Positions 6,849 to 19,694 of a DNA stretch of 51,520 bases are shown piece after piece. Position numbers and translations under genes: made by a program. The DNA lies in NCBI GenBank assembly GCA_964433975.1, contig CAYSSS010000003.1, positions 1-51,520 of the forward strand, read 5' to 3'. The notes under the pieces were generated by a model. The model made no database searches and was not told where the DNA came from. It saw only the letters and a list, made by a program, of their open reading frames with translations. The first letter of the stretch is position 1, and each line of letters begins with the position of its first letter. The DNA is from an uncultured Planctomycetia bacterium (GTDB lineage Bacteria; Omnitrophota; Gorgyraeia; 2-01-FULL-45-10).

Positions 6849-8916
6849 AATCATAATATTTGTAATAACATTGATAGCGCTTGGATTTGTGGTGGGATGC
6901 GCTAAGGTGGGTTCGGGGCGGCTTAGTGGCAAACCCGGCCAGCTTTCAAATTTTGAAAATATCAAAATTTGGGATATATCGCCTGAGACCGGATTCGATA
7001 TAAAGCTTTCAGGGGAGTATGTTACAGAGGGGGCGCATTCGCTTAAGGTAGTCTATCCCGTAGGCGGCCTGCCCAGCATCAATACAAAGAAGCTCCCGCG
7101 TGAATGGGGAGAGTATGACTCTTTTGCCTTCGATGTATTCAACCCCCAGGGTAGAGATATAGATTTTGTAGTCCGCCTTGACGATAAATACAAAAAGAGA
7201 GTGAATATCCCGTATATATTGAAGCCTGGGATGAATAATGTGAGTATATCGAAAGGTCTGATTGGCCGCTCAATAAACGCTTCTGAAATATACAGGGTAG
7301 TCCTGTATATAAAAGAGCCAAGGGAACGAGTTACCCTGTATTTTGATAACATGAGACTTGTTGGCATGAAAGATGGCGTTCGTGAGGGTAGTGCCGGAAC
7401 AGTGCAGCAACTCGTGCTTGCAGAATCCCAGGAGATGATAACGAAAGAGACATTTGCTCCCATTGTAATAGAGAGCTTACTGCCTATTAGAGGTTCAATA
7501 AAGGTAAATGCCGCCAGGATAAATGGCCCAATTTCGAAACAAAGGCTTTTTGTCTCAAATGGAGTGCCGTTCTGTCCGGGACAGCTTAAGGATGAGAAGA
7601 ATTTCGCCGTGTTCAACGCGGAAGGTAAAGAGATTCCTATTGCCATGAAGGTTTTGGCGAGATGGCCTCAGGATGGATCGATAAGGTCGCTTCTTGTTCA
7701 GTTCGAGGCCGAAATTCCGCATAAGTATAAGCAGCTTTATATGAGGTGGGGAGAGTCGGGAACCCTGAATGATCAAAAGCCGAAAGACGTTACATGGATA
7801 CTACCTGAAGCAATCCTGCTTCTTCCTCCAGAGTGGTTATCGGCGTCGATGGTTACGGACGAACAGATCCCGTTTGGCAAACAACCTTTTCCTAAATATG
7901 ACGATAATATTGCAAAGGTATACACTAAATTAAAGACTATCAAGTGGACTGATAATGTGGGCAAGGATGGCTATTATGATACGCCGCATGTCTTCTATCA
8001 GATCTTCTCGAGAAGCGGGAATGATGACTATTTTAGATTCGCGCGTAGTGAAGCTGTTCATTATCGTGATGACCAGCTCATCCAGGATGGTCTGGAGAAA
8101 GGCAGAGCATTAGTTTCTTCTAAGACTCGCTATGTATACGTACAGGCGCTCATGGATGATTACCTTTTGACGGGAGACGAGAGGTCACTCAATATGGCAG
8201 GAGCTATGGCAAGATTTCTTATGAAAAGCTTTCCTCCTGAAAAAGGCTTCTATGCCAAAAACGATTCTAAATTTTGGACAGAGAGAGAGGCAGCTTTTCC
8301 GCTTCTGGGCGCTATGAGTTATTATGAGCTCACGGGTGATAAGGAGTGCCTTGAGTATTCCAGTAAACTCGTGCAGAATCTCTATAAGACGCAATACCAG
8401 TGGCCCGGCCGCGGAGGATTCATCCATAACCTTTATTCACATGATACGGAGGAGGGCGCAAGGAAAGATGAGTATGGTGGTTCGCCCTTTATGACAGGCT
8501 TGCTCCTCGAAGGAATAGTAAAATACCATCGTCTTACAAATAGTAATATCGCAAAAGACTCTATATTCAGGGCGCTTGATTGGATCATGAATGAAGGCAT
8601 CTCCTCGGATGGGGACTCCATTAATTATCTGACATGCGATGCGAGGCGATATGAGGGCGTCCCCGATCTTAACTTGCTCGTTGTGCATGCGTTCGGATAT
8701 GGATATATGATAAGCGGCGGTGAGAGGAAGGATTTTCTGAATATGGGCAACAAACTATTCGAGCGCGGTGTAAATAGCGCTTATCTCGGGACGCGCAAGC
8801 ACTTTAATCAAAATTACCGTTCAAGCGGACATTTCTTAAGCTATATAGTGCCTACAAAAGAAAAAGAGATTGCTTCGCCCGCCACCTTCGGTGGCGAGGC
8901 TCGCAATGACGGGTAA
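6838..8916 (+). CDS. Lipoprotein with an N-terminal CBM-like beta-sandwich and a C-terminal alpha-helical domain; putative EPS-processing glycanase/lyase
   Basis: Lipoprotein signal peptide MKNKIIIFVITLIALGFVVGC. N-terminal domain ends ...TLYFDNMRLV, as CBM11-like modules do. The C-terminal region is rich in helical repeats. The last codons (KEIASPATFGGEARNDG) are encoded by a repeat copy. ATG 6838 is preferred over ATG 6829. Confidence 0.6.
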   Translation: MKNKIIIFVITLIALGFVVGCAKVGSGRLSGKPGQLSNFENIKIWDISPETGFDIKLSGEYVTEGAHSLKVVYPVGGLPSINTKKLPREWGEYDSFAFDVFNPQGRDIDFVVRLDDKYKKRVNIPYILKPGMNNVSISKGLIGRSINASEIYRVVLYIKEPRERVTLYFDNMRLVGMKDGVREGSAGTVQQLVLAESQEMITKETFAPIVIESLLPIRGSIKVNAARINGPISKQRLFVSNGVPFCPGQLKDEKNFAVFNAEGKEIPIAMKVLARWPQDGSIRSLLVQFEAEIPHKYKQLYMRWGESGTLNDQKPKDVTWILPEAILLLPPEWLSASMVTDEQIPFGKQPFPKYDDNIAKVYTKLKTIKWTDNVGKDGYYDTPHVFYQIFSRSGNDDYFRFARSEAVHYRDDQLIQDGLEKGRALVSSKTRYVYVQALMDDYLLTGDERSLNMAGAMARFLMKSFPPEKGFYAKNDSKFWTEREAAFPLLGAMSYYELTGDKECLEYSSKLVQNLYKTQYQWPGRGGFIHNLYSHDTEEGARKDEYGGSPFMTGLLLEGIVKYHRLTNSNIAKDSIFRALDWIMNEGISSDGDSINYLTCDARRYEGVPDLNLLVVHAFGYGYMISGGERKDFLNMGNKLFERGVNSAYLGTRKHFNQNYRSSGHFLSYIVPTKEKEIASPATFGGEARNDG
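8868..8912 (+). repeat. Hairpin repeat family, copy b (GATTGCTTCG..GCCACC-TTCG-GTGGC..CTCGCAATGACGG)
   Basis: Same flanks as the other copies, with a different but still self-complementary core. Spans the 3' end of ORF 6838-8916. Confidence 0.8.
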
Positions 8917-8917
8917 A

Positions 8918-9778
8918 ATGAAAATGCAAAACATACTAACCATTGATGTTGAGGATTATTTCCAGGTGGAAAATTTGAAAGAAACAGTAAAGTACTCTGA
9001 TTGGGAAAAGTATGAGTGTAGGGTAATAAAGAACACAGATAAAGTATTGGATATTTTAGATAGATACAGTACAAAAGCAACGTTCTTTGTATTAGGATGG
9101 CTTGCCGAGCGGTATCCGGAGCTTGTAAAAAAAATAGACGGCGCGGGGCATGAGATAGCCAGTCATGGTTACGCACATAATCTGATATATGAGCAGAGCC
9201 AGGAAGATTTTAGAGCTGACCTGAGGAGATCAAAGACGATTCTGGAAAATATAATAAAACATCCGATTGTAGGCTATCGTGCGCCGAGTTATTCAATAAC
9301 GAAAAAATCTGTATGGGCGCTAGATATATTAATGGATGAAGGCTTCGAATATGATTCAAGCCTCTTTCCTATATACCATGATCTAGGAGGACTGCCCGAT
9401 GCGAAAAGATATCCAAACGAAATACGCAACAATAGACACAGTATTATCGAAATACCTATATCTACGGTAAAGATAGTAGGCAAAAATATTCCTTTTTCCG
9501 GAGGAGGGTATTTAAGACTGCTGCCCTACAGACTTATAAGATGGGCCGCAAAACAGGTTAACAGAGAAGGATATCCTGTTGTAATATATCTTCATCCATG
9601 GGAATTCGATAAGGATCAGCCCAGGATAAAGACAGGGAGGATTAAGAGCTTTCGCCATTATGTTAATCTCCATAAGACAGTAGAGAAGTTTAAGAAACTT
9701 TTAAACGATTTTAAATTCACCTCAATAAAGGATTTTCTGAAAAACCAGAGACCGGAGACCCTGTATGAAAAAAATTAA
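8918..9778 (+). CDS. Polysaccharide deacetylase, PEP-CTERM/XrtA-locus subfamily (TIGR03006-like)
   Basis: Starts MKMQNILTIDVEDYFQVENL, which is characteristic of this subfamily. Also GHEIASHGYAH and YRAPSYS. ATG 8918 follows the upstream stop (8914-8916). The longer 8870 start would translate the repeat element. Confidence 0.85.
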   Translation: MKMQNILTIDVEDYFQVENLKETVKYSDWEKYECRVIKNTDKVLDILDRYSTKATFFVLGWLAERYPELVKKIDGAGHEIASHGYAHNLIYEQSQEDFRADLRRSKTILENIIKHPIVGYRAPSYSITKKSVWALDILMDEGFEYDSSLFPIYHDLGGLPDAKRYPNEIRNNRHSIIEIPISTVKIVGKNIPFSGGGYLRLLPYRLIRWAAKQVNREGYPVVIYLHPWEFDKDQPRIKTGRIKSFRHYVNLHKTVEKFKKLLNDFKFTSIKDFLKNQRPETLYEKN

Positions 9779-10607
9779 CTTATCAAAATTAGCCGCGGCG
9801 CTAGCGCTTACGCTCATTGTGTATATTCCCACCATAAACTGGATGGTCGATCGGTGGTTTGCTAAGGAGTCGTACTATAGCCATGGTATCCTTATTCCGC
9901 TCATATCCCTATTCATAATATGGCAGAGAAGGGATGCGCTAAAAAAGATCAAGGTCTCGGGCAGTTTTATGGGATTATGGATCATTGCTATAAGCCTTCT
10001 TGTGCACATCATATGTGCTGCCTTAAGGATCTACTTTTTATCGGGCTTTTCTTTGGTATTCGCAATATACGGGCTAGTTCTATTTACATTTGGCAAAGAT
10101 ATGGTACGCAAACTCATATTTCCCTTATCCTTTCTGCTTTTGATGGTACCGCTGCCGCTTGTTATAATCGGTAATCTTACGGTTAGACTTAAGCTTTTTG
10201 CGGCACAATTATCTACCATCGTGCTCAATAGTATAGGTTTCCGGTGCATATTGGATGGAAGCGTCATAAGAATGCAGTCTTCCTTCGTAGAAGTCGCGGC
10301 GCCATGCAGCGGTCTTCGCTCAATAATATCGCTCGTTACATTGGGACTGCTCTTCGCGTATGTCATGAAGACATCGTTTTTTAAAAAGAGCATACTTTTC
10401 TTATCGTCTATTCCCATAGCCATTGCTACAAATGTGATGAGGATAACCTTAGTCGCCATAGTTAATGATCTCTACGGAGAGAAGGTCGCTATGGGGGCTT
10501 TCCATGATTTTACGGGCTATATGGTCTTTGTGGTGGCATTTCTAGGGCTCTATGGAGTTGCGCAAATTATGGGAGCGAGAGAGTCGGGAGAAGATAATGA
10601 AAATTAA
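9765..10607 (+). CDS. Exosortase (EpsH/Xrt family transpeptidase), short stand-alone form
   Basis: 280 aa, polytopic. Catalytic-type motifs VAAPCSGLRSI (Cys), ATNVMRITLV (Arg) and FHDFTGYMVF (His). Sits next to EpsI and PEP-CTERM genes. Confidence 0.9.
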   Translation: MKKINLSKLAAALALTLIVYIPTINWMVDRWFAKESYYSHGILIPLISLFIIWQRRDALKKIKVSGSFMGLWIIAISLLVHIICAALRIYFLSGFSLVFAIYGLVLFTFGKDMVRKLIFPLSFLLLMVPLPLVIIGNLTVRLKLFAAQLSTIVLNSIGFRCILDGSVIRMQSSFVEVAAPCSGLRSIISLVTLGLLFAYVMKTSFFKKSILFLSSIPIAIATNVMRITLVAIVNDLYGEKVAMGAFHDFTGYMVFVVAFLGLYGVAQIMGARESGEDNEN

Positions 10608-11232
10608 CAAAAATACGGTTGAGTTTGTGGTGTTGATAGCGATGTTGCTGGCGGCGGGCGCGATCTCTATGGGATTATTTAATAGAGAGATGTCTGCAAG
10701 CGACAAGCTGGATGTGCACAAATTTCCGATGAAGATAGGAAAGTGGCAGGGCAGGGAGCTGCCGATCACGGAAAAAGAGTACGACATACTGGAAACACGA
10801 AACCTTATTTCAAGAGAATATGTGAATCCTTCCGGGGATAAGTTATATCTATTGATCATATATTCCGAAACGAACAGGTCCGTATTTCATCCTCCCGAGG
10901 TATGCATGGTAGGAAGCGGCCTTGACATAACTGATAAACAGGTTGAAGAATTTGATGCAGGAAACAAGGCCTTCACGACGAATAAATTGTTCGCTGAGAA
11001 AGGCCAGCACAAAGAGATCATTTTAAATTCTTATAAAGCAGGTAACATGTATACGAGTAATTTCTATCTTCAGCAAACGAGTCTGGCGTTCCATCAGGTC
11101 TTCGGGCGCAACGTACCCGGTGCAACGCTTCGAGTTTCAATGGCCGTCGGGAAAGATCAGAGTGCAACTCTCGCAACTCTCAAGGATTTCCTGAGTAAAT
11201 CTGCTGTTATTCTCGACAAATTGAGCAGTTAA
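10597..11232 (+). CDS. EpsI family exosortase-associated protein
   Basis: MKINKNTVEFVVLIAMLLAAGA signal anchor. FHPPEVCMVGSG matches the EpsI H-x-P-x-x-C motif. ATG 10597 overlaps the exosortase stop by 11 nt. Confidence 0.8.
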   Translation: MKINKNTVEFVVLIAMLLAAGAISMGLFNREMSASDKLDVHKFPMKIGKWQGRELPITEKEYDILETRNLISREYVNPSGDKLYLLIIYSETNRSVFHPPEVCMVGSGLDITDKQVEEFDAGNKAFTTNKLFAEKGQHKEIILNSYKAGNMYTSNFYLQQTSLAFHQVFGRNVPGATLRVSMAVGKDQSATLATLKDFLSKSAVILDKLSS

Positions 11233-11276: not shown

Positions 11277-11324
11277 TTGTCCAATTTTTTACAACCACCT
11301 GTCTAAGATTGTCATGGTTTGTCA
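11277..11324 (+). promoter_or_regulatory. Candidate enhancer (UAS): TTGT-N10-ACAA inverted repeat plus TTGTCA-N4-TTGTCA direct repeat
   Basis: TTGTCCAATTTTTTACAA at 11277-11294 and TTGTCATGGTTTGTCA at 11309-11324. These lie 100-150 bp upstream of the sigma-54 -24/-12 element. Confidence 0.35.
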
Positions 11325-11425: not shown

Positions 11426-11442
11426 TGGCACGAATACTGCTT
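11426..11442 (+). promoter_or_regulatory. Sigma-54 (-24/-12) promoter
   Basis: TGGCACGAATACTGCTT against the consensus TGGCACG-N4-TTGCW. GG and GC have correct spacing and there is one mismatch. It sits in a 360-bp gap ahead of the small ORF, sugar transferase and PEP-CTERM genes. A sigma-54 activator is encoded in the same locus. Confidence 0.7.
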
Positions 11443-11477: not shown

Positions 11478-11594
11478 ATGAAGAAGATGATGGAGTCACT
11501 GAAAGAGATGCTGGACGGGATTATGCACGAGATAGATGTGTATATGACGATACAGCGGTATCAGCGCAACACAAGAAAGTACAAGAGCGCCTAA
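11478..11594 (+). CDS. 38-codon small ORF (leader peptide or small protein)
   Basis: GGAGGAG lies 8 nt upstream of ATG 11478. Product is MKKMMESLKEMLDGIMHEIDVYMTIQRYQRNTRKYKSA. The TAA stop abuts the transferase ATG in the same frame. Confidence 0.45.
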   Translation: MKKMMESLKEMLDGIMHEIDVYMTIQRYQRNTRKYKSA

Positions 11595-12254
11595 ATGCCA
11601 GAACCAACTACTATCGCACTGGTAAGCACCGGATTTGTGGGGTTCATCACGCAATACGCCAGGAGGCATTTTCGAGAAGTCAAGAAGGCGCTTGACCTCA
11701 GCATGGCCGGAGTCGGTATCGTAATGGCCACTCCTGTAATTTTTCTTGCAGCCATAGTGGTAAAGATCGTATCGCCCGGTCCCGTATTTTTCAAACAGGA
11801 GAGAATGGGCTGGGGAGGAAAGCGTTTTTATATTTACAAGCTGCGGACGATGCGCGTAGACGCGGAAAAAAATACAGGTCCCGTTTGGGCTAAGGAAGAC
11901 GATCCTCGTTTAATAAAATTCGGCAAGCTTATAAGAAAGCTGCATATCGATGAGCTGCCGCAATTATTCAACGTATTGAAGGGTGACATGAGCATGGTAG
12001 GCCCGAGGCCTGAAAGGCCTGTGTTTGTCCAGAAGCTCAGTAAAGAAATTTTAGATTATCGCAAAAGAATGAACGTAAAGCCGGGCATCACGGGTCTAGC
12101 GCAGGTATGGCATAAGTATGATGAGACGATAGCCGATGTTCGCAAGAAGGTAAAGTACGATCTCCTCTATATAAGAGAGATGTGCCTTATGGTGGATGTA
12201 AGGATTTTATTGCGAACTATACTAGTATCGGCTCAAGGAAAAGGGGCTAGGTAG
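11595..12254 (+). CDS. Bacterial sugar transferase (PF02397, PglC/WbaP-C-type phosphoglycosyl transferase) with an N-terminal PEP-motif extension
   Basis: Contains VSPGPVFFKQERMG..FYIYKLRTM, DELPQLFNVLKGDMSMVGPRPE and KPGITGLAQV. The first 26 aa are MPEPTTIALVSTGFVGFITQYARRHF. Confidence 0.9.
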   Translation: MPEPTTIALVSTGFVGFITQYARRHFREVKKALDLSMAGVGIVMATPVIFLAAIVVKIVSPGPVFFKQERMGWGGKRFYIYKLRTMRVDAEKNTGPVWAKEDDPRLIKFGKLIRKLHIDELPQLFNVLKGDMSMVGPRPERPVFVQKLSKEILDYRKRMNVKPGITGLAQVWHKYDETIADVRKKVKYDLLYIREMCLMVDVRILLRTILVSAQGKGAR

Positions 12255-12257
12255 ATT

Positions 12258-12926
12258 ATGAGAAAAATAGTTTGTGCCGGGATCTTATTAGTAGTGAGCG
12301 TGTTTGTTTTTGCTACGGCTGGTTACGCAAATATGTACTATGACTCCCCTGTCCCTGCCGACTTAAACGATTTGGATCACTCAAAGGCATATTATTGGGG
12401 GATATCGCGTAACCTGGCGGCTAACGAGTACATAACAAGCGCATCAATAAGTATCAAAAATATCAATGATTGGGCGATAGAAAGTACAGATTTCTTATAT
12501 ATGGATCTGTTCCAGGATGCGCTCTACGGGACAGGGGTAAAAACTTTCACAGATAATGAAGCTGCGGGCGATTATTTTGCAAATAATATATCTTTATTCG
12601 GGACTATGAACACCCTGGATATTTATTCGGACACAAATGAGTACAGGGAAAAGAAATGGAATAAAAAACATACAAAATATAAATGGGGGCCGTGGATCAA
12701 TCCTTCGGAAGATTACACTTACAATTTTAGCGCTGATGAAATACAGATACTTGCCAATGCTATGGCAGATGGTAATTTTGCGTTCGGATTTGATCCGGAT
12801 TGCCATTATAACAACTGCGGCATAACGTTTAGATTTGATACGAATGTATCGACGCCGGAGCCGGCGACGATGTCGCTTTTAGGGTTAGGATTGTTTGGAC
12901 TATTAGGATTTAAGCGCAAAAAATAA
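12258..12926 (+). CDS. PEP-CTERM sorting-domain protein 1
   Basis: Signal peptide (..FATAGYA/NM). C-terminus TPEPATMSLLGLGLFGLLGFKRKK. Confidence 0.9.
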   Translation: MRKIVCAGILLVVSVFVFATAGYANMYYDSPVPADLNDLDHSKAYYWGISRNLAANEYITSASISIKNINDWAIESTDFLYMDLFQDALYGTGVKTFTDNEAAGDYFANNISLFGTMNTLDIYSDTNEYREKKWNKKHTKYKWGPWINPSEDYTYNFSADEIQILANAMADGNFAFGFDPDCHYNNCGITFRFDTNVSTPEPATMSLLGLGLFGLLGFKRKK

Positions 12927-12967
12927 GAAGGACAATACACTGAAAACCGGAAATAGAGAAGGGTAGC

Positions 12968-13723
12968 ATGAAAAAAATAATAACGCTTTTAAGCTTGATC
13001 GTTGCCGGTTTATTTTTTATGGCTTCTTATGCAAATGCCAGCATAATCGCTAATGGCGACATGAGCGATTGGGGCGTTACTCCGGGCGTCTGGGGTACTC
13101 CTAATATGTGGGTTCCGAACAATGGCGCTATATACAACCCCGAAGACCAAAACACAGACAAGCTCGGGCCTGGTTATGGCGGTCAGAAGTTTGATGCCGA
13201 AGCAATATACTTTGTAAGAGAAAATGGATATGTTTGTGTAGCTATAGTAACCGGACATCCTGCCGGTGGATATGGAGGTCATTATCCCGGAGATGTATTT
13301 TTTAACTTCGGAGCAGGTATGGAATATGGCCTTGAAACCACAGGTACAAATGCGGGAAGGCTTTATAAAAATCCTGTATGGAACATGAGTTCGTACTGGG
13401 GAAGTTTAAATTCCGAGACCACTATGCAAGACGGGACCTGGGAAAAGGATATGGGTTTAGCTGGGTTTGCGTATGCGTTTACCTATGACGGGGCTGGCGT
13501 TAGCAATGATCACTGGGTTATTGAGATGAAAATACCCAATAGCTTTTTCGGCGATAATTGGAATGATAGCGGAACGGTACATTGGACCGAGACATGCGGG
13601 AATGATGCAATTGATCTGGACTTTCCATCTACTCCCGTTCCGGAGCCGGCGACGATGTCGCTTTTGGGGCTTGGATTGGCGGGGTTGATTGGAGCAAGAC
13701 GGAAAAAAATAAGGAGAGAATGA
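12968..13723 (+). CDS. PEP-CTERM sorting-domain protein 2
   Basis: Signal peptide (..MASYANA/SI). C-terminus VPEPATMSLLGLGLAGLIGARRKKIRRE. Confidence 0.9.
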   Translation: MKKIITLLSLIVAGLFFMASYANASIIANGDMSDWGVTPGVWGTPNMWVPNNGAIYNPEDQNTDKLGPGYGGQKFDAEAIYFVRENGYVCVAIVTGHPAGGYGGHYPGDVFFNFGAGMEYGLETTGTNAGRLYKNPVWNMSSYWGSLNSETTMQDGTWEKDMGLAGFAYAFTYDGAGVSNDHWVIEMKIPNSFFGDNWNDSGTVHWTETCGNDAIDLDFPSTPVPEPATMSLLGLGLAGLIGARRKKIRRE

Positions 13724-14601
13724 TGAAAATGGCAGCGCTTCTTGGAGTAATGATAGTCTTGTCAATGCTAGTAGTCATTCCTCCATCATTGTACGCACAA
13801 GCTGATAGCTGTATTATTTCCACAAATGACGACGGAAAGAGTAAGGACGAAACCCTGAGCTTCAAAAACGAAGACCTACTCAAATACGTCCCCTCAACCA
13901 GCATTCTCAGCATGTATCTGGACGCGGATTCGCTATTCAAGAATGATGAGAATATTGATGCGTTACACATCCTATCCGATGGAAGTATTATATTCTCGAC
14001 CGGCGGCGACGGGAAGAGTAAGGACGGAACCCTGAGCTTCAAAAACGAAGACCTACTCAAATACGTCCCATCAACCAGCATTCTCAGCATGTATCTGGAC
14101 GCGGATTCGTTGTTTAAAAATGATGAGAATATCGACGCACTGTATATCTTTTCCGATAACAGCATTATCTTTTCTACCGGCGGCGACGGAAAGAGTAAGG
14201 ACGAAACCCTGAGCTTCAAAAACGAAGACCTACTCAAATACGTCCCCTCAACCAGCATTCTCAGCATGTATCTGGACGCGGATTCGCTATTCAAGAATGA
14301 TGAGAATATTGATGCGTTACACATCCTATCCGATGGAAGTATTATATTCTCGACCGGCGGCGACGGGAAGAGTAAGGACGGAACCCTGAGCTTCAAAAAC
14401 GAAGACCTACTCAAATACGTCCCATCAACCAGCATTCTCAGCATGTATCTGGACGCGGATTCGTTGTTTAAAAATGATGAGAATATTGACGCACTGTATA
14501 TTAACGAAACCAATAAAGTGGTTCCTGAGCCGGCGACGATGTCGCTTTTGGGATTGGGATTAGCGGGATTATTGAGATTCAGAAAGAAGAAGCTGTTATA
14601 A
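13720..14601 (+). CDS. PEP-CTERM sorting-domain protein 3, built from four 59-aa repeats
   Basis: Signal peptide (..PPSLYA/QA). Four copies of DGKSKD(E/G)TLSFKNEDLLKYVPSTSILSMYLDADSLFKNDENIDAL.. C-terminus VPEPATMSLLGLGLAGLLRFRKKKLL. Confidence 0.9.
   Translation: MMKMAALLGVMIVLSMLVVIPPSLYAQADSCIISTNDDGKSKDETLSFKNEDLLKYVPSTSILSMYLDADSLFKNDENIDALHILSDGSIIFSTGGDGKSKDGTLSFKNEDLLKYVPSTSILSMYLDADSLFKNDENIDALYIFSDNSIIFSTGGDGKSKDETLSFKNEDLLKYVPSTSILSMYLDADSLFKNDENIDALHILSDGSIIFSTGGDGKSKDGTLSFKNEDLLKYVPSTSILSMYLDADSLFKNDENIDALYINETNKVVPEPATMSLLGLGLAGLLRFRKKKLL
13831..14501 (+). repeat. Coding tandem repeat: 177-bp unit in two alternating variants, giving a 354-bp super-unit present ~1.9 times
   Basis: GACGGAAAGAGTAAGGACGAAACC recurs at 13831 and 14185 (offset 354). 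The two super-units differ at about one position by eye (aatatCgac vs aatatTgac). Confidence 0.9.
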
Positions 14602-14621
14602 ACAATGAAAGGAGAGAATAG

Positions 14622-15284
14622 ATGAAAGTATTTATAGTTTTAGCTGGAATTGTATTATCTTTGACATTAGCAAGCTCCGCTTATGCAGTGCCGTCTTATA
14701 CCGATCTATGGGATGTGAATACTGGATATATAAACAGTGTGACGGCTCCGGGCGGAATGGATTATCATGGATATAATCCAAATACTGGACTATATGGATC
14801 TAATCCATGGGATGCTTTTGGTGCCACGTATGGGGACGGCGTTTCGGTATTCACAGATGGATATGGACCGGGAACTGTTCACGAGCTTTATTGGACAACT
14901 AATACATATTTAACGATAAAAAGTTTTAACCTATATTCTGGAATGGAAGGGGTAAATAATACAAATAGAATTTTTGATCACTTTATTCTTCAAGCCTACA
15001 ATGGGAGTGGGTGGACAACTTTGTATGATAAAGATATTCCATTTCCTTATGGCTCTGGTACTAGTGGACTTACGCTAGATTTATTAAGCAATGTGGACAA
15101 TGTTATATCGAGCAATTCATTTAGGGCTGGTTTCAGACAAGTTTCAGACTATCAATATGCCGAAGGTCCGAGAGTTATTGAACTCGATGGTTTTGCGTCT
15201 GCGCTAGTTCCCGAGCCAGCGACGATGTCGCTTTTGGGGCTCGGAATGGCTGGGCTATTGAGATTTAGACGGAAGAAGGCATAA
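14622..15284 (+). CDS. PEP-CTERM sorting-domain protein 4
   Basis: Signal peptide (..ASSAYA/VP). C-terminus VPEPATMSLLGLGMAGLLRFRRKKA. Confidence 0.9.
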   Translation: MKVFIVLAGIVLSLTLASSAYAVPSYTDLWDVNTGYINSVTAPGGMDYHGYNPNTGLYGSNPWDAFGATYGDGVSVFTDGYGPGTVHELYWTTNTYLTIKSFNLYSGMEGVNNTNRIFDHFILQAYNGSGWTTLYDKDIPFPYGSGTSGLTLDLLSNVDNVISSNSFRAGFRQVSDYQYAEGPRVIELDGFASALVPEPATMSLLGLGMAGLLRFRRKKA

Positions 15285-15320
15285 ACTTTAATAAATATGA
15301 TAATGAAGGGAGGTGAAACG

Positions 15321-15983
15321 ATGAAGAAAGTGTTAGTTATACTGATAATTGGCTTGGTGCTGGGATGGATGAACATTTCTACCGCGCACGCTATCGTTAT
15401 TGATGGGATAGCGGCAGGCGGTGAATGGGTTGCGCCGTTCAAGATCCATGCCACAGATCCTGCAGAATCAGGGATATTTGATTATCTCGATGTTAAATTG
15501 CTTCTCGCCCAGTGGACAACTCCGGGCGGAGATATATATATACGCACAGATACGGTAATTAAGCCTGAATTTATTAAAGATTCAGGCTATCTGAACGACG
15601 CGTATATGGCCTGGCAATTTGATTTCGACGGTAATGGCTCTGTGGATCTATCGGCTCAACTCATCAAGGAAGTTGATTTCGGTCACGCTGATGGTAATAT
15701 CTATTACTATGTTGGCGGTACCCAATACGATAATGGTGTAACAAAATATTGGGGAAAGGACGACGTCTACGAGGTACTGATACCTGCAGAGAAGGTTCCG
15801 GTATTTAATCCTGGTAAGTTTCAGATGAGGCTCATATCTGAGTCAGCAAGTTCGTCTGGTGATGATAACTTGCCGGATACGGGATGGTCGAAGACAGTGC
15901 CTGAGCCGGGAAGCGCGATGCTTCTGGGTATGGGATTAGTTGGTTTCGTTGGTAGTTTGTTTCGCAGGAAGTTCAACGCATAA
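15321..15983 (+). CDS. PEP-CTERM sorting-domain protein 5 (divergent tail)
   Basis: GGAGG RBS before ATG 15321. Signal peptide MKKVLVILIIGLVLGWMNISTAHA. C-terminus VPEPGSAMLLGMGLVGFVGSLFRRKFNA. Confidence 0.85.
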   Translation: MKKVLVILIIGLVLGWMNISTAHAIVIDGIAAGGEWVAPFKIHATDPAESGIFDYLDVKLLLAQWTTPGGDIYIRTDTVIKPEFIKDSGYLNDAYMAWQFDFDGNGSVDLSAQLIKEVDFGHADGNIYYYVGGTQYDNGVTKYWGKDDVYEVLIPAEKVPVFNPGKFQMRLISESASSSGDDNLPDTGWSKTVPEPGSAMLLGMGLVGFVGSLFRRKFNA

Positions 15984-16261: not shown

Positions 16262-17128
16262 ATGAAATATAATATCATAAAAAACTGGGGTGCGTCGCTG
16301 GGATTCATGAAGAAGAATCCTATTGTTATGATGCCTTTTGTCTTCATAGCTTTTATGGAACTCTTAGCGCTGGAATTTTTATATTTCTCTCCCAGGGTAC
16401 CGCTCTCATATATCGCAAATCCCATAATTCGTAAATTTTTCGGCGAAAACTTTATCCATTATCCGTTTGATCTTGTGCTGCTGCCGCGATTGTTCTATTA
16501 TCTGCAAGTGGCGATCTATGCGCTCGTGGGCGCTTTCCTGACCGCCGTGGCAGTGAATATATTCAAGAACTTTAGGGACGGCCTACCGGTCAAGGCGAAG
16601 GCGATGGTGAGAAATGCCCTTAAGAGTTACGCCTCTCTTGTAATCTACGCCCTCTTGGTCAGCGCTCTTATATTTGCTTTACAGAGAGCGGATACATTCA
16701 TCTTTTCAAAAGCCATGAGGCTGCTGGCGCGGATCCTGCCGATATCAATATCACCCGTTTACAAAATAGGTTTTACGCTTCTTTTATTCTTATCAAACAT
16801 TATTATGCAGACTTTTCTCATATGTACCATACCCATTATAGTTATACAGAAGACGTCGATACTAAAAGCCATTACCAGAAGTGTAATACTGGGTGCGCGT
16901 AATTTTTTTACTATCTTCGCTTTGATATTTTTGCCGTTTTTTATATACCTGCCTATAATATTTTTTAAAAGTTTTTCTACGCAGATCATGGATAGGATGT
17001 TTCCAGAAATAAATATATGCATTACGGTGGTTGGGGTACTCGTTACGATATTTCTGGATTCATTCGTTATCTTGTGTGTTTCGCAATTTATAATGGATAG
17101 GAAGAGCGTAGTGGAGAAGGTGGCGTGA
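16262..17128 (+). CDS. Polytopic membrane protein of unknown function
   Basis: 288 aa with about 6-7 hydrophobic helices. I recognise no family. GTGA overlap with the next gene. Confidence 0.7.
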   Translation: MKYNIIKNWGASLGFMKKNPIVMMPFVFIAFMELLALEFLYFSPRVPLSYIANPIIRKFFGENFIHYPFDLVLLPRLFYYLQVAIYALVGAFLTAVAVNIFKNFRDGLPVKAKAMVRNALKSYASLVIYALLVSALIFALQRADTFIFSKAMRLLARILPISISPVYKIGFTLLLFLSNIIMQTFLICTIPIIVIQKTSILKAITRSVILGARNFFTIFALIFLPFFIYLPIIFFKSFSTQIMDRMFPEINICITVVGVLVTIFLDSFVILCVSQFIMDRKSVVEKVA

Positions 17129-18000
17129 AGAAGACGATATGGGCCATGGCCCTGGTGCTAATTACCGTGTACGCGGTTTTTGCCGTAATAGGAGCCCGAG
17201 GTGAGTACTCGGCCGAGAAACTTCTCTATGGCGCTATCAAGATGAATGAGAAGATCACCGCCAACCCTGATGTAGTCCCGCCTAAATTACTCAATGACAT
17301 AGAAAAGAAGATGAATAAGCTGCTGGAAAAGTATCCTGATACCGAAGTTGTAAAGACGGCAAATATAAAATTAGCGGAGTTTTATATAGCATACAAAAAA
17401 TACGATCAGGCGCTCGCTCAGGCCGATAAGATAATTAAAAAGTACGAGAAGAATCCGGCTATATTAAGTATGGCGTATTTTCTTAAAGGGGTCGCCTACG
17501 AGAAGCAGGATAAGTGGCCGAGTGCACTAAAAGAGTATCGCACGATACGCGACAAATATACGGATACGCAATTGGGCATGCAGATGCCCATCTATATAGC
17601 CAACTACTACTCTCGAAAGGGCAGGGAGGCCCAGGCAAAGGAAGCCTATGGTGAAGCGGCGAGATTTTATGAGAAGATCGAAAGAGAGAACAGCAAAAAG
17701 GCCCTAGGTTACATGGCGTCTCTATTTTTGATACAGACATACATAAAAGCCGATAATGTTGAGAGCGCGGGTAGGCAAGTGGAGGAGACTCTTAATAAAT
17801 ATTTTAGTCAAATGGCGATAATGCAGCTGTTACCGCTGGTAGAGAGTATAATCGTGACCAAACTTAATGAGCCGAACAAGGCGGTAGAAATTTATAAAAC
17901 CGTTCTTGCAAAATCCAAGGACGAAAAATTTAACAAAGTACTACAGAAGAGGATAGAAGAGCTATCAAAAGAGGGTTCTGTTAGTATACAAAAAAGTTAG
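17125..18000 (+). CDS. Membrane-anchored TPR-like repeat protein
   Basis: N-terminal anchor MKKTIWAMALVLITVYAVFAVIG followed by helical repeats with TPR-like A/Y/L spacing (AEFYIAYKKYDQALAQADKII, AYFLKGVAYEKQDKWPSALKEY). Confidence 0.7.
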   Translation: MKKTIWAMALVLITVYAVFAVIGARGEYSAEKLLYGAIKMNEKITANPDVVPPKLLNDIEKKMNKLLEKYPDTEVVKTANIKLAEFYIAYKKYDQALAQADKIIKKYEKNPAILSMAYFLKGVAYEKQDKWPSALKEYRTIRDKYTDTQLGMQMPIYIANYYSRKGREAQAKEAYGEAARFYEKIERENSKKALGYMASLFLIQTYIKADNVESAGRQVEETLNKYFSQMAIMQLLPLVESIIVTKLNEPNKAVEIYKTVLAKSKDEKFNKVLQKRIEELSKEGSVSIQKS

Positions 18001-18037: not shown

Positions 18038-18322
18038 ATGAATGGAAATAATAATGGCAACGGAAAGACGCGTCTAAAAAAATTGACGCTGATGGGAAGG
18101 AAGTACCGAGGTATCATAAGTGAGATATCCAATCCCATAGATTCGACGAATCGGTTCATAAACCTTGCGTTGAATACAGTTGGGGATAATTCACAAGGAA
18201 GACAGTTCCTTCTGGAATCGAAGCAGGGGATCAGGAAGACGGCGGTTTTACTTAAAAGATTGAATGATTACTCGCAGAAGATAGAGAAAGAGATACTGGA
18301 GATGGCAAAGACAAATGGATAA
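18038..18322 (+). CDS. 94-aa DHp (HisKA)-like protein lacking the phospho-acceptor histidine
   Basis: RGIISEISNPIDSTNRFINLAL resembles the NtrB-type H-box (aHEIrNPL..i..f..L) with Ser28 in the His position. The second helix (GIRKTAVLLKRLNDYSQ) resembles DHp helix 2. There is no ATPase domain. The stop overlaps the activator start by 8 nt. Confidence 0.55.
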   Translation: MNGNNNGNGKTRLKKLTLMGRKYRGIISEISNPIDSTNRFINLALNTVGDNSQGRQFLLESKQGIRKTAVLLKRLNDYSQKIEKEILEMAKTNG

Positions 18323-19694
18323 ATCTCGGGTTCTTATAGTTAGCGGTGATAAGCTTACACAGAGATCCTTATACGAGCTGATATGCCGGCATGGCTATGA
18401 GGCGGCCATTACGCATTCCGTTAATGATGTCATGGCTCATCTCGATGAGAAGCTATGCCATGTCATCCTGGCTGATATAGACGGGGCTGATGACGTAGAG
18501 GTATTGAAGCTCATCAAGGATAAGGGGTATCCTTCTGAGATAATAACGATGGCCTCTCACGCCGATTCAATCGATAATATGAGCGATCTGGGTGCCGATT
18601 GTCTCATAATGCCGGTAGAAGACAAAAAGATACTCTCCTCGATCGAAAAGGCCTTATTAAAGGTATCCCACACCGAATCAAGACAGTCATTCCTGACGAA
18701 ACTACTCCATAAAGAGAGCACATTCCATGATCTAGTTGGGCAGAGCCAGTCCTTTAAAGATATATATTCTCTAGTAGACCGCATATCGAGCTCCAAGGCA
18801 ACGGTCCTTTTGCGCGGTGAGAGCGGCACGGGTAAGAGGATGGTGGCCAGAGCGATACATAAGGCTGACAAGAAGAGACGCGATAAGCCTTTTATGGAGA
18901 TATCCTGCGGGGCTCTTCCGCGCGATATCATCGAAAGCGAGCTCTTCGGCCACACGAAGGGGTCTTTTACGGGAGCCATAAATGAGCGCAAGGGGCGTTT
19001 TGAGTTGGCCCATGGCGGAACGGTCCTACTGGACGATATAGACTCTTTCTCGCTCGACCTGCAGGTAAAGCTCTTAAGGGTGCTCCAGCATAAGGAGTTC
19101 AAAAGGGTAGGGGACCACAAGACGATCAAAGTCGATGTCCGCTTCATAGTATCTACCAACCAGGACCTGGAGAAGGCGATAGCGGAGAAGAAGTTCAGGG
19201 AGGACTTATACTACCGCCTGAACGTCATATCTATCAATATTCCGCCATTAAGAAGCCGCAAAGAAGATCTTCCTCTATTAGTGAATCACTTCATGAGCCT
19301 TTATTCAAAAGAGAACCATAAAAAGATAAAACGCGTCTCTGATGAGACTATGCAGGTGCTGATGAACCACAGCTGGCCTGGAAACGTGAGAGAGCTAGAA
19401 AATATAGTGGAACGCGCCGTTATACTTGATACGGATGGCCTGATAGAGATCGACGATTTGCCTGAGCTATTAGTAGGTAGCACAATAGTCTATGCCGATA
19501 CGAGGATAAACAAGAATACGGGCGATGCCGTATCTTTGAAGGACGCTCTTAAAGAGCCTGAGATGGTATATATATTGAAGGTGATGAAAGAGGTGGGATG
19601 GAACAAAAAGAAGGCCGCCAGAAAATTAGGCGTCAACAGGACAACGCTCTATAATAAATTAAAGAAGTATAATCTTTTAGCCGAAGCAAAATAG
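18315..19694 (+). CDS. Sigma-54-dependent transcriptional activator (NtrC family; PrsR-like) with a degenerate receiver domain
   Basis: Receiver-like N-terminus. AAA+ core with GESGTGK, ELFGH, GSFTGA (GAFTGA loop) and FREDLYYRLNV. C-terminal Fis-type HTH AARKLGVNRTTLYNKLKKY. Confidence 0.9.
   Translation: MDKSRVLIVSGDKLTQRSLYELICRHGYEAAITHSVNDVMAHLDEKLCHVILADIDGADDVEVLKLIKDKGYPSEIITMASHADSIDNMSDLGADCLIMPVEDKKILSSIEKALLKVSHTESRQSFLTKLLHKESTFHDLVGQSQSFKDIYSLVDRISSSKATVLLRGESGTGKRMVARAIHKADKKRRDKPFMEISCGALPRDIIESELFGHTKGSFTGAINERKGRFELAHGGTVLLDDIDSFSLDLQVKLLRVLQHKEFKRVGDHKTIKVDVRFIVSTNQDLEKAIAEKKFREDLYYRLNVISINIPPLRSRKEDLPLLVNHFMSLYSKENHKKIKRVSDETMQVLMNHSWPGNVRELENIVERAVILDTDGLIEIDDLPELLVGSTIVYADTRINKNTGDAVSLKDALKEPEMVYILKVMKEVGWNKKKAARKLGVNRTTLYNKLKKYNLLAEAK

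What the first reader, a model, noticed from the sequence alone, without database searches (positions are those of the whole stretch)
11595..11681. PEP-CTERM-like sorting module at the N-terminus of the priming sugar transferase
The PF02397 sugar transferase begins MPEPTTIALVSTGFVGFITQYARRHFREVKK. That is PEP, then about 17 hydrophobic residues, then a basic patch. This is the same three-part architecture as the C-terminal sorting signals of the five genes just downstream (VPEPATMSLLGLGLAGLLRFRKKK), and the residues are nearly the same (PEP-[AT]T-[MI]-[SA]-L-[LV]).

Small PglC-type transferases normally start close to the K/R-x-x-D re-entrant helix, which here is VKKALDLSMAGVG. The PEP segment is therefore an extra N-terminal helix. 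An N-out, positive-inside topology would put the PEP motif on the same membrane face as in genuine exosortase substrates.

This could be a docking or pseudo-substrate module that ties glycan initiation to the exosortase. It could also be a fossil of a fusion with the 3' end of a PEP-CTERM gene. I do not know of a description of this arrangement.
Basis: partly seen in the sequence, partly recalled or inferred. Interest (0 to 1): 0.8.

Follow-up and report, generated by a model that had tools for sequence, protein, structure and literature searches.

The report
Exosortase sorting tag fused onto priming glycosyltransferase
The enzyme that starts exopolysaccharide synthesis in this locus carries, in front of its normal membrane anchor, a conserved copy of the tag that normally sits at the tail of exosortase-sorted proteins. 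This suggests, without proving it, a physical link between sugar-chain initiation and protein sorting.

Summary
ORF 11595-12254 is an intact PglC-type phosphoglycosyl transferase (PGT). Its first ~28 residues (MPEP, 18 mostly hydrophobic residues, RRHFREVKK) form an extra helix that resembles a PEP-CTERM sorting domain.

It is not chance. It is the only non-C-terminal hit to PEP-CTERM models in the window. PEP is exact in 111 of 120 close homologues.

- The window form derives from a precise 123-nt in-frame deletion. Closest relatives have signal peptide, ~10-aa linker, PEP, helix, basic patch, then PGT.
- More distant relatives (Omnitrophota, Elusimicrobiota, Planctomycetota) are full fusions. 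Signal peptide plus 180-260 aa cargo, homologous to this window's free PEP-CTERM proteins, runs through the PEP tag straight into the PGT.
- PEP always lies 32 residues before the Asp of K-R-x-x-D.

Module-bearing PGTs sit in exosortase/EpsI/PEP-CTERM loci (7/10 against 5/79 control PGT loci).

Best reading: a captured sorting signal that serves as PGT anchor and exosortase-recognition handle. This is inferred, not shown. Against it, a PEP-less sister clade keeps the same locus, and the window helix is only weakly hydrophobic.

I found no published description. I rate it a new variant of a known kind.

The parts
11595..11606 (+). Initiator Met followed directly by the Pro-Glu-Pro signature (MPEP).
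   Evidence: Sequence. PEP is exact in 111/120 close homologues and 25/27 of the 219-aa forms. It lies exactly 32 residues before the Asp of K-R-x-x-D in 91/108 non-redundant helix-preceded PGTs.
11607..11660 (+). An 18-residue, mostly hydrophobic helix (TTIALVSTGFVGFITQYA). This is the presumed transmembrane part of the PEP-CTERM-like module.
   Evidence: AlphaFold2 gives helix 4-24 at pLDDT 80-86. G-x-x-G is conserved (G-21 and G-18). Kyte-Doolittle hydrophobicity is only 1.1-1.3 over 17 residues.
11661..11687 (+). Basic patch RRHFREVKK (5 K/R, 1 acidic). It joins the module to the re-entrant helix, and its last two residues (KK) are the K-K of the K-K-x-x-D motif.
   Evidence: Sequence. R-11 is 88% conserved and K-4 is 90% conserved.
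11682..12254 (+). PglC-type monotopic phosphoglycosyl transferase core. It comprises the K-K-x-x-D re-entrant helix with a Thr-Pro break, the SPGPVFF segment, the Asp-Glu dyad in IDELPQL, and PRPERP.
   Evidence: PF02397 at 214.8 bits. PDB PglC 8e37 at E 1.1e-33. Foldseek TMt 0.72-0.75. D119, E120 and PRPER are invariant.
11478..11594 (+). Conserved 38-aa upstream ORF. It is translationally coupled to the PGT (TAAATG) and is fused in-frame to the PGT in the 283-293 aa homologues.
   Evidence: There is no family hit.
11426..11441 (+). Sigma-54-type promoter element (TGGCACGAATACTGCT) in front of the small ORF, the PGT and the PEP-CTERM genes.
   Evidence: It is conserved in L001, L003, L005 and L098.
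11310..11324 (+). Conserved TGTCATGGTTTGTCA repeat. It is a candidate enhancer-binding site.
9765..10607 (+). Exosortase (XrtA-like). This is the presumed partner of the module.
   Evidence: PF09721 at E 3.6e-64. TIGR02602 at 180.8 bits, above its cut-off. XrtA at 183 bits against a cut-off of 208.
10552..11232 (+). EpsI, the exosortase-associated protein.
   Evidence: TIGR02914 at 77.9 bits, above the cut-off of 42.8.
12258..15983 (+). Five genuine PEP-CTERM cargo genes: 12258-12926, 12968-13723, 13720-14601, 14622-15284 and 15297-15983.
   Evidence: The first two are homologous to the N-terminal cargo domains of the fusion proteins P0161 and P0165.

Best explanation
The first ~28 residues of the priming PGT are a true evolutionary derivative of a PEP-CTERM sorting domain. 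A small PglC-type PGT captured it as its N-terminal transmembrane anchor.

**Layout.** In the ancestral layout, a signal peptide carries the N-terminus across the inner membrane. PEP then sits at the outer face, the helix returns through the membrane, and the basic patch stays inside. The re-entrant helix and catalytic domain follow on the cytoplasmic face.

**Proposed function.** I propose the module is an exosortase-recognition handle.
- In relatives that carry a full cargo domain, it would be cut like any PEP-CTERM signal. That would release the cargo and leave the PGT next to the exosortase.
- In cargo-less forms such as this one, it would act as a minimal substrate or pseudo-substrate that tethers the PGT to the exosortase/EpsI complex.
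- Either way, initiation of the Und-P-linked glycan and processing of PEP-CTERM proteins would be co-localised and co-regulated from one sigma-54 operon.

**The window gene.** It is the most reduced version. A precise deletion removed the signal peptide and linker and left Met-PEP.

**Shown:**
- homology to PEP-CTERM domains and conservation of PEP;
- invariant spacing between PEP and the re-entrant helix;
- the existence of cargo fusions;
- association with exosortase loci;
- the deletion that produced the window form;
- an intact PGT fold.

**Inferred:**
- membrane topology of the window form;
- binding or cleavage by the exosortase;
- any functional coupling.
For: 1. **PEP-CTERM models recognise the segment.**
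 - TIGR02595 gives 15.5 and 17.5 bits here and 20.4 bits (above the cut-off of 16) in homologue P0062. It hits 94/120 homologues at E<=0.1.
 - A local tail HMM separates the PGT modules (6.7-22.9 bits) from all background ORFs (<=3.2 bits).

2. **Selection acts on PEP itself.**
 - In 120 homologues of 69-89% identity, the signal peptide and 10-aa linker vary freely, yet P41/E42/P43 are >=90% conserved.
 - In a non-redundant set, P/E/P carry 3.3-3.6 bits, as much as the K-R of the catalytic-domain motif.

3. **Spacing is fixed.** PEP is at -32 from the Asp in 91 of 92 cases, with no indels.

4. **Full fusions exist and are conserved.**
 - P0143 (458 aa) has homologues at 64-65% identity over 98-99% of its length.
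 - 17 of the 112 hits new to that search carry more than 100 aa of cargo.
 - The cargo of P0165 matches window ORF 12968-13723 end to end (E 1e-17). The cargo of P0161 matches 12258-12926 (E 9e-14).

5. **Context.**
 - Exosortase plus EpsI lie within 10 kb in 7/10 module loci against 5/79 control PGT loci. Fisher p = 1e-5, or p = 0.01 if related loci are collapsed.
 - 79 of 80 diverse PGT loci lack the module.

6. **Minimal forms recur.**
 - Met-PEP forms occur in lineages less than 50% identical to each other and in Brocadiia.
 - The window clade kept PEP in 25/27 members after the deletion.

7. **Some modules track their own genome's tails.** L010 matches 10/14 residues, L015 8/14 and L012 7/14. 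Overall the own-locus mean is 5.9 against 4.8 for other loci, permutation p ~0.02.

8. **Structure.** There is a separate helix 4-24 before the PglC-like core.
Against: - A sister clade has lost PEP (…LFPWAVSGSF…) but keeps both helices. It still sits between PEP-CTERM genes and exosortase/EpsI. PEP is therefore not indispensable for a PGT in such a locus.
- The window helix is only weakly hydrophobic (KD ~1.1-1.3) and now lacks a signal peptide. Whether its four-residue N-terminus reaches the outer face is uncertain.
- In Omnitrophota the module differs from genuine tails (STG against LGLG). It scores below or near curated cut-offs, and own-locus covariation is absent in that clade.
- Six of 117 close homologues have PE[ASV] in place of PEP.
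- Three module loci show no exosortase within ~10 kb (L009, L014, L015).
- No experiment or co-fold was possible. AlphaFold2 of the long form is poorly confident around PEP (pLDDT 35-47).
- My collected set was gathered with PEP-containing profiles, so the 84% figure is an upper bound.
Confidence: 0.55

Rival explanations
1. The module is an inherited anchor only. It descends from a PEP-CTERM domain through an old gene fusion but now serves purely as an extra membrane helix for the PGT. PEP is kept for local structural reasons, such as a helix cap or interface positioning, or through slow decay. There is no functional contact with the exosortase.
For: - A PEP-less clade sits in the same exosortase locus and keeps the helix.
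- The Omnitrophota module has drifted away from genuine tails and is not in their DNA repeat family.
- HMM scores are marginal.
- PE[ASV] variants occur.
Against: - P, E and P are as conserved as catalytic-domain motif residues across sequences that share under 40% identity in the module, while neighbouring helix positions vary.
- PEP was retained after a deletion that removed everything in front of it.
- Met-PEP forms arose repeatedly.
- Several different cargo domains are joined at exactly this point.
- In L010, L012 and L015 the module resembles the genome's own tails.
Confidence: 0.27
2. Processing acts as a switch. The module is a genuine cleaved substrate in all forms, and cleavage by the exosortase activates, or is required for the maturation of, the PGT. 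Glycan initiation would then start only when the sorting machinery is active.
For: - Cargo::PEP::PGT fusions must be cut if the cargo is to leave the membrane.
- Exosortases are described as cleaving PEP-CTERM signals (abstract of bioRxiv 10.1101/2023.06.07.544157, listed).
Against: - In the window form only Met precedes PEP, so cleavage would remove at most a few residues. It is hard to see how that could gate activity.
- The PEP-less clade functions without it.
- The PglC fold needs no N-terminal processing (established knowledge of PglC).
Confidence: 0.1
3. The finding is an annotation artefact. Translation starts at GTG 11637 or later, and the 'PEP segment' is untranslated leader that resembles a tail by chance.
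For: The Shine-Dalgarno sequence before ATG 11595 is weak (aagagcgcc).
Against: - The segment lies inside the ORF in the longer homologues: 72 of the 120 close homologues have PEP 19-53 residues into the protein (most of them the 258-261 aa forms) and 12 have it 66 or more residues in.
- The TAAATG stop-start junction is conserved.
- Synonymous changes occur between the window and L001 within codons 2-14.
- All 27 forms of 219 aa keep the frame open from MPE[PA].
- No Shine-Dalgarno sequence precedes GTG 11637.
Confidence: 0.03

Closest known systems
PEP-CTERM sorting domain (TIGR02595 / PF07589) of exosortase substrates (Haft et al. 2006, PMC1569441)
   Same: - It has the same three-part build: PEP, a ~17-18 residue helix with G-x-x-G, and a basic cluster.
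- It is recognised by the same HMMs.
- It is encoded in an exosortase/EpsI locus.
- In relatives it follows a signal peptide and even the same cargo families.
   Different: - It is not C-terminal. A ~190-residue cytoplasmic enzyme follows the basic patch.
[quoted passage not shown]
- Here the internal copy is strongly conserved.
- The window copy also lacks any signal peptide or cargo.
Small monotopic phosphoglycosyl transferases, PglC type (PDB 8e37, 8g1n; PF02397)
   Same: It has the same catalytic core, re-entrant helix, Asp-Glu dyad and fold (E 1e-33; Foldseek TMt 0.72-0.75).
   Different: PglC starts about 9 residues before the K/R-x-x-D motif. This protein has about 20 more residues that form a separate helix headed by PEP.
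TIGR03013 (EpsB_2), the PGT of XrtA/PEP-CTERM systems, and other large WbaP/WcaJ-type PGTs
   Same: - It has the same locus role, as priming transferase of an exosortase-linked EPS cluster. The XrtA-system deacetylase TIGR03006 is present at 384.8 bits.
- The catalytic half aligns at 262 bits.
   Different: The large PGTs carry ~240 N-terminal residues (four helices plus a cytoplasmic domain). Here that region is replaced by the single PEP-headed helix, and the score is below the family cut-off (262 against 393).
Sortase/LPXTG with lipid II, and the T9SS PorU sortase attaching cargo to a glycolipid linking sugar (PMC7468200)
   Same: These are a conceptual precedent. A C-terminal signal is cut by a transpeptidase, and the cargo is joined to a polyprenol- or lipid-linked glycan.
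   Different: No such chemistry is known for exosortase. The link here is only a gene fusion and synteny. Nothing was tested.

Membership tests
PEP-CTERM sorting domain (TIGR02595 / PF07589) | Near-invariant Pro-Glu-Pro motif at the start of the domain | tested here: met
   Residues 2-4 are PEP. PEP is exact in 111/120 homologues.
PEP-CTERM sorting domain (TIGR02595 / PF07589) | Hydrophobic transmembrane stretch directly after PEP, followed by a basic cluster | tested here: met
   There are 18 uncharged residues and then RRHFREVKK. AlphaFold2 gives helix 4-24. Hydrophobicity is lower than in genuine tails.
PEP-CTERM sorting domain (TIGR02595 / PF07589) | HMM score at or above the curated cut-off | tested here: inconclusive
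   TIGR02595 gives 15.5 bits in the whole protein against a cut-off of 16, and 17.5 bits on the peptide alone. PF07589 gives 14.9 and 18.0 bits against 20.7. Homologue P0062 scores 20.4 bits, above 16.
PEP-CTERM sorting domain (TIGR02595 / PF07589) | Position at the extreme C-terminus (median of 3 residues after the domain) | tested here: not met
   About 190 residues follow. The domain is N-terminal here and internal in homologues.
PEP-CTERM sorting domain (TIGR02595 / PF07589) | N-terminal signal peptide on the same protein | tested here: not met
   It is absent in the window, removed by the 123-nt deletion. It is present in the 258-aa and cargo-bearing relatives.
PEP-CTERM sorting domain (TIGR02595 / PF07589) | Co-occurrence with an exosortase | tested here: met
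   An exosortase lies 1 kb upstream. Among module loci 7/10 have one, against 5/79 controls.
PEP-CTERM sorting domain (TIGR02595 / PF07589) | Recognition or cleavage by the exosortase | not testable with these tools
   This needs biochemistry or a multimer co-fold.
Monotopic phosphoglycosyl transferase, small PglC type (PF02397) | PF02397 catalytic domain with the Asp-Glu dyad and PRP motif | tested here: met
   PF02397 scores 214.8 bits. D119-E120 and P137-R-P-E-R are invariant.
Monotopic phosphoglycosyl transferase, small PglC type (PF02397) | Re-entrant membrane helix headed by K/R-x-x-D with a Ser/Thr-Pro break | tested here: met
   KKALD…ATPV aligns with PglC residues 10 onward. P47 is invariant. 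AlphaFold2 draws it as one helix, residues 26-59.
Monotopic phosphoglycosyl transferase, small PglC type (PF02397) | No transmembrane segment before the re-entrant helix | tested here: not met
   An extra helix spans residues 4-24. Small control PGTs have only 5-25 in-frame codons between the nearest upstream stop and the start of the match, which lies at or shortly before the motif (L018, L082, L088).
TIGR03013 XrtA/PEP-CTERM-system glycosyltransferase (EpsB_2) | Full-length match above the cut-off (393 bits), including the ~240-residue N-terminal region | tested here: not met
   The score is 261.9 bits, and only profile positions 242-443 match.
TIGR03013 XrtA/PEP-CTERM-system glycosyltransferase (EpsB_2) | Location in an XrtA-type locus | tested here: met
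   The TIGR03006 deacetylase scores 384.8 bits against a cut-off of 276. EpsI, an XrtA-like exosortase and a sigma-54 activator are present.

The most novel reading that the evidence does not exclude
The PEP::PGT union exists because the exosortase and the priming transferase work on the same molecule. In this reading, the exosortase transfers PEP-CTERM cargo onto the polyprenol-linked glycan that this PGT initiates. A free amine might be supplied by the adjacent XrtA-system deacetylase.

This would be analogous to sortase with lipid II, or PorU with the A-LPS linking sugar. The PGT's own PEP helix would hold it in the exosortase's substrate groove so that acceptor synthesis and transpeptidation are channelled.

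Cargo::PEP::PGT fusions would then be self-delivering precursors that bring one cargo and one initiating enzyme to each exosortase.
Probability: 0.15. Interest if true: 0.9.

Novelty: new variant of a known kind. Interest (0 to 1): 0.68.

Why it matters
What exosortases attach their substrates to, and why they are always embedded in exopolysaccharide loci, has been open since 2006.

A conserved, multi-phylum fusion of the sorting signal to the enzyme that starts glycan synthesis gives a concrete, testable handle:
- One partner is defined (the PGT helix).
- Natural full-length cargo::PEP::PGT precursors exist, and their cleavage can be followed.
- Natural minimal (Met-PEP) and PEP-less variants serve as controls.

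It also shows that PEP-CTERM domains can be functional-looking and conserved away from the C-terminus. Current annotation rules and the original description treat that case as non-functional.

Finally, it defines a fourth N-terminal architecture for monotopic PGTs.

Tried and rejected
- **Short-profile homologue search.** I searched with the 72-column module profile A3. It returned only short PGT fragments and no taxonomy, and it cost one capped search.
- **Genome scan with A4.** It returned mostly generic PGTs. It was useful as a control set and gave one Brocadiia module locus, but it is not a census.
- **Small-ORF tail hypothesis.** I first thought the window's small-ORF tail (RKYKSA) was the remnant of the signal-peptide n-region (RKIKSA) of 260-aa relatives. 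The DNA alignment showed this to be coincidence. The deletion lies wholly inside the PGT ORF.
- **Recent gene conversion.** I rejected conversion from the neighbouring tails, because the PGT module is not in their DNA repeat family.
- **AlphaFold2 of the 258-aa form.** It was too uncertain around PEP (pLDDT 35-47) to say anything about the hairpin.
- **Rfam.** It found no RNA family in the window.
- **Literature searches.** None found a description of a PEP-CTERM/PGT fusion.
Full report
**Observation**

ORF 11595..12254 (+) encodes 219 aa beginning MPEPTTIALVSTGFVGFITQYARRHFREVKKALDLSMAGVG.
- Pfam PF02397 covers residues 30-211 (E 8.7e-64).
- The closest solved structures are Campylobacter concisus PglC (8e37/8g1n). 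Window residue 29 aligns with PglC residue 10.
- AlphaFold2 of the window protein (pLDDT 86) gives helix 4-24, a break at residue 25, then helix 26-59 and a PglC-like core.
- Foldseek aligns 182 columns to PglC, with TM-score 0.72-0.75 normalised to PglC.

The PGT is therefore intact, and it carries one extra N-terminal helix headed by PEP.

**Is it more than chance?**
- TIGR02595 matches residues 2-18 at 15.5 bits in the whole protein (cut-off 16) and 17.5 bits on the peptide alone. PF07589 gives 14.9 and 18.0 bits (gathering 20.7).
- These scores are marginal on their own, so I built an HMM from 14 non-redundant genuine tails of this and related loci. I scored it against all 997 six-frame ORFs of at least 50 aa.
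- After the tails themselves, the only hits are the PGT N-termini (22.9, 16.2 for the window, 15.2 and 6.7 bits). The best unrelated ORF reaches 3.2 bits.
- Of 80 diverse PGT loci drawn from GTDB genomes, 79 have no such segment.

**Homologues change the picture**

The 120 closest proteins (69-89% identity, named Omnitrophota where named) come in three main N-terminal forms; a few others have shorter or longer called N-termini.
- 219 aa, starting MPEP like the window.
- About 258 aa: a signal-peptide-like helix ending C/A-Y-A-Q, a ~10-residue variable linker, then [AV]PEP, helix, basic patch and PGT.
- 283-293 aa: the same, preceded by 'MKK…IDVYLxIQRYxR'.

PEP is exact in 111 of 120 and PE[ASV] in six. 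Three are calls truncated at an internal Met. The signal peptide and linker vary freely while P, E and P are at least 90% conserved. TIGR02595 hits 94 of 120 at E<=0.1, and P0062 scores 20.4 bits, above the curated cut-off. Several homologues already carry a precomputed PF07589+PF02397 annotation.

**Origin of the window form**

I aligned the DNA of the window, L001 (219-type) and L098 (the closest 260-type).
- All three keep the stop codon of a small upstream ORF abutting the PGT start (TAAATG).
- The 219-type lacks exactly 123 nt, codons 2-42. That is the whole signal peptide and linker, between the ATG and the CCN-GAR-CCN of PEP.
- After that deletion, 25 of 27 descendants still read MPEP and two read MPEA.
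- This, the conserved coupling junction, synonymous differences in codons 2-14, and the absence of a Shine-Dalgarno sequence before GTG 11637 rule out the alternative start.

**Beyond the close family**

I searched a profile of the N-terminal 122 positions against 1.84 billion representatives. It found the PEP, helix, basic patch and re-entrant-helix arrangement in about 47 of the best 150 clusters.
- Some are Met-PEP forms less than 50% identical to each other (P0146, P0158, P0162, P0213, P0237).
- Others are large proteins in which a signal peptide and 180-260 residues precede PEP (P0143, P0147, P0153, P0161, P0165 and others).
- The N-terminal domain of P0165 aligns end to end, signal peptide to PEP, with window ORF 12968-13723 (E 1e-17). 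That of P0161 aligns with 12258-12926 (E 9e-14).
- These proteins are therefore genuine PEP-CTERM cargo proteins whose sorting domain runs straight into a PGT.
- They are not assembly accidents. P0143 has homologues at 64-65% identity over 98-99% of its length. Of the 112 hits new to that search, 104 carry the module: 17 with more than 100 aa in front, 76 with 51-100 aa and 11 with 50 or fewer.
- P0161 is annotated Elusimicrobiota. A Brocadiia (Planctomycetota) genome has …GPMPEPATLTLLGTGF… beside a PEP-CTERM gene ending VPEPATLTLLGLGL.
- In a non-redundant set of 108 helix-preceded PGTs, PEP lies exactly 32 residues before the Asp of K-R-x-x-D in 91 and at -33 in one. P/E/P carry 3.3-3.6 bits each. 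That set was gathered with PEP-containing profiles, so the fraction is an upper bound.

**Context**

Synteny is conserved: glycosyltransferases, exosortase, EpsI, the 38-aa ORF, the PGT, 2-5 PEP-CTERM genes, a ~288-aa membrane protein, a TPR protein, a sigma-54 activator, and a PocR/GAF protein.
- In L010 the order is exosortase, EpsI, two PEP-CTERM genes, then the cargo::PEP::PGT fusion.
- A distant Met-PEP form (L012) sits 6 kb from exosortase/EpsI.
- An exosortase lies within the flanks of 7 of 10 module loci against 5 of 79 control loci. Fisher p = 1e-5, or p = 0.01 when related loci are collapsed to lineages.
- The window deacetylase is the XrtA-system marker TIGR03006 (384.8 bits against 276). 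The exosortase falls just short of the XrtA cut-off (183 against 208).

**Mechanism**

The topology demanded by the long forms is signal peptide out, PEP at the outer face, helix back in, basic patch inside, then the cytoplasmic re-entrant helix. This is exactly that of a genuine exosortase substrate.

Exosortases are described as cleaving PEP-CTERM (abstract of bioRxiv 10.1101/2023.06.07.544157, listed; model in PMC1569441). In the cargo fusions the module must be cut if the cargo is to leave the membrane.

For cargo-less forms, the retention of PEP at fixed register argues for continued recognition. The most economical reading is a handle that keeps the priming PGT at the exosortase. I hold this at about 0.55.

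**Evidence against, stated plainly**
- A sister clade has replaced PEP by …LFPWAVSGSF…. It still sits between PEP-CTERM genes and exosortase/EpsI, so the motif is dispensable in at least one lineage.
- The window helix has a Kyte-Doolittle mean of only 1.1-1.3 and no signal peptide. Its insertion with the N-terminus out is plausible (five K/R on the C-flank) but unproven.
- Within Omnitrophota the module has its own flavour (ALxSTGF). It does not belong to the DNA repeat family shared by the five tails. It shows no own-locus covariation; the overall covariation (5.9 against 4.8 of 14, p ~0.02) is carried by L010, L012 and L015.
- An anchor-only reading therefore keeps about 0.27.

**Comparison with what is known**
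- Haft et al. [quoted passage not shown]
- Six literature searches found no description of a PEP-CTERM/PGT fusion or of any exosortase-PGT contact.
- The catalytic part is an ordinary PglC-type monotopic PGT and the locus is an ordinary XrtA-like EPS locus.
- What is new is the conserved placement of the sorting signal in front of the PGT, the family of cargo::PEP::PGT precursors, and their reduction series down to Met-PEP.
- I file it as a new variant of a known kind, not as a member of the PEP-CTERM family in the strict sense. The C-terminal position was tested and not met. The HMM threshold test was inconclusive.

**Verdict**

Interest is 0.68.

Noticed in passing
window 11478-11594 (+): A conserved 38-aa ORF (MKKMMESLKEMLDGIMHEIDVYMTIQRYQRNTRKYKSA) has a strong Shine-Dalgarno sequence (GGGAGGAG). 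Its stop codon abuts the PGT start (TAAATG). It is a separate ORF in the 219- and 258-aa forms, and is fused in-frame to the PGT in the 283-293 aa forms. A similar N-terminus (MKEFNDLLDAWKDYLRYHLYSK) heads the PEP-less clade; I compared it by eye only. It has no Pfam or NCBIfam hit and its function is unknown.
   Followed up: partly
window 11426-11441 and 11310-11324 (+): A sigma-54-type promoter (TGGCACGAATACTGCT) and an upstream TGTCATGGTTTGTCA repeat lie ahead of the small ORF/PGT/PEP-CTERM operon. Both are conserved in L001, L003, L005 and L098. This fits the sigma-54 activator at 18315-19694 and the known RpoN control of PEP-CTERM genes.
   Followed up: partly
window 16262-17128 and 17125-18000 (+): A 288-aa multi-helix membrane protein with no family hit, and a TPR protein, follow the PGT/PEP-CTERM block in every related locus. 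This includes Elusimicrobiota L009, L010, L012 and the PEP-less L095. They look like an undescribed core pair of this exosortase system.
   Followed up: no
window 13807-14460 (+), inside ORF 13720-14601: The third PEP-CTERM gene contains tandem 177-nt (59-aa) repeats at 87-97% identity.
   Followed up: no
window 12837-12922, 13622-13707, 14506-14591, 15192-15277, 15897-15946: The PEP-CTERM tails of the five cargo genes share a DNA-level repeat (GAGCCGGCGACGATGTCGCTTTTGGG). This suggests concerted evolution or gene conversion among the tails. The PGT module is not part of this repeat family.
   Followed up: partly
L095-L097 (protein P0456) and P0451, P0474, P0486, P0501, P0184: A sister clade of PGTs keeps both N-terminal helices but has lost PEP (…LFPWAVSGSF…). 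It still lies between PEP-CTERM genes and exosortase/EpsI. It is a natural negative control for any functional test.
   Followed up: partly
P0183 (463 aa) and P0272 (500 aa), from the representative search: P0183 is a PGT ORF that runs on into a signal peptide, a domain and a PEP-CTERM tail. This is either PGT and the downstream cargo gene merged, or a lost stop codon. P0272 has a degenerate HEP helix followed by a second cargo and PEP helix before the PGT, so it is a tandem fusion.
   Followed up: no
window 8870-9778 (+): The polysaccharide deacetylase directly upstream of the exosortase is the XrtA-system marker TIGR03006 (384.8 bits, cut-off 276). The exosortase itself falls just below the XrtA cut-off (183 against 208), and scores similarly to XrtW and XrtD over their exosortase parts, far below those cut-offs. 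The exosortase subtype may be unclassified.
   Followed up: partly
L027, L045, L052 (Gemmatimonadales loci from the genome scan): In these control loci an exosortase ORF starts immediately after, or overlapping the end of, a PGT gene that lacks the PEP module. This is a different way of linking the same two genes.
   Followed up: no
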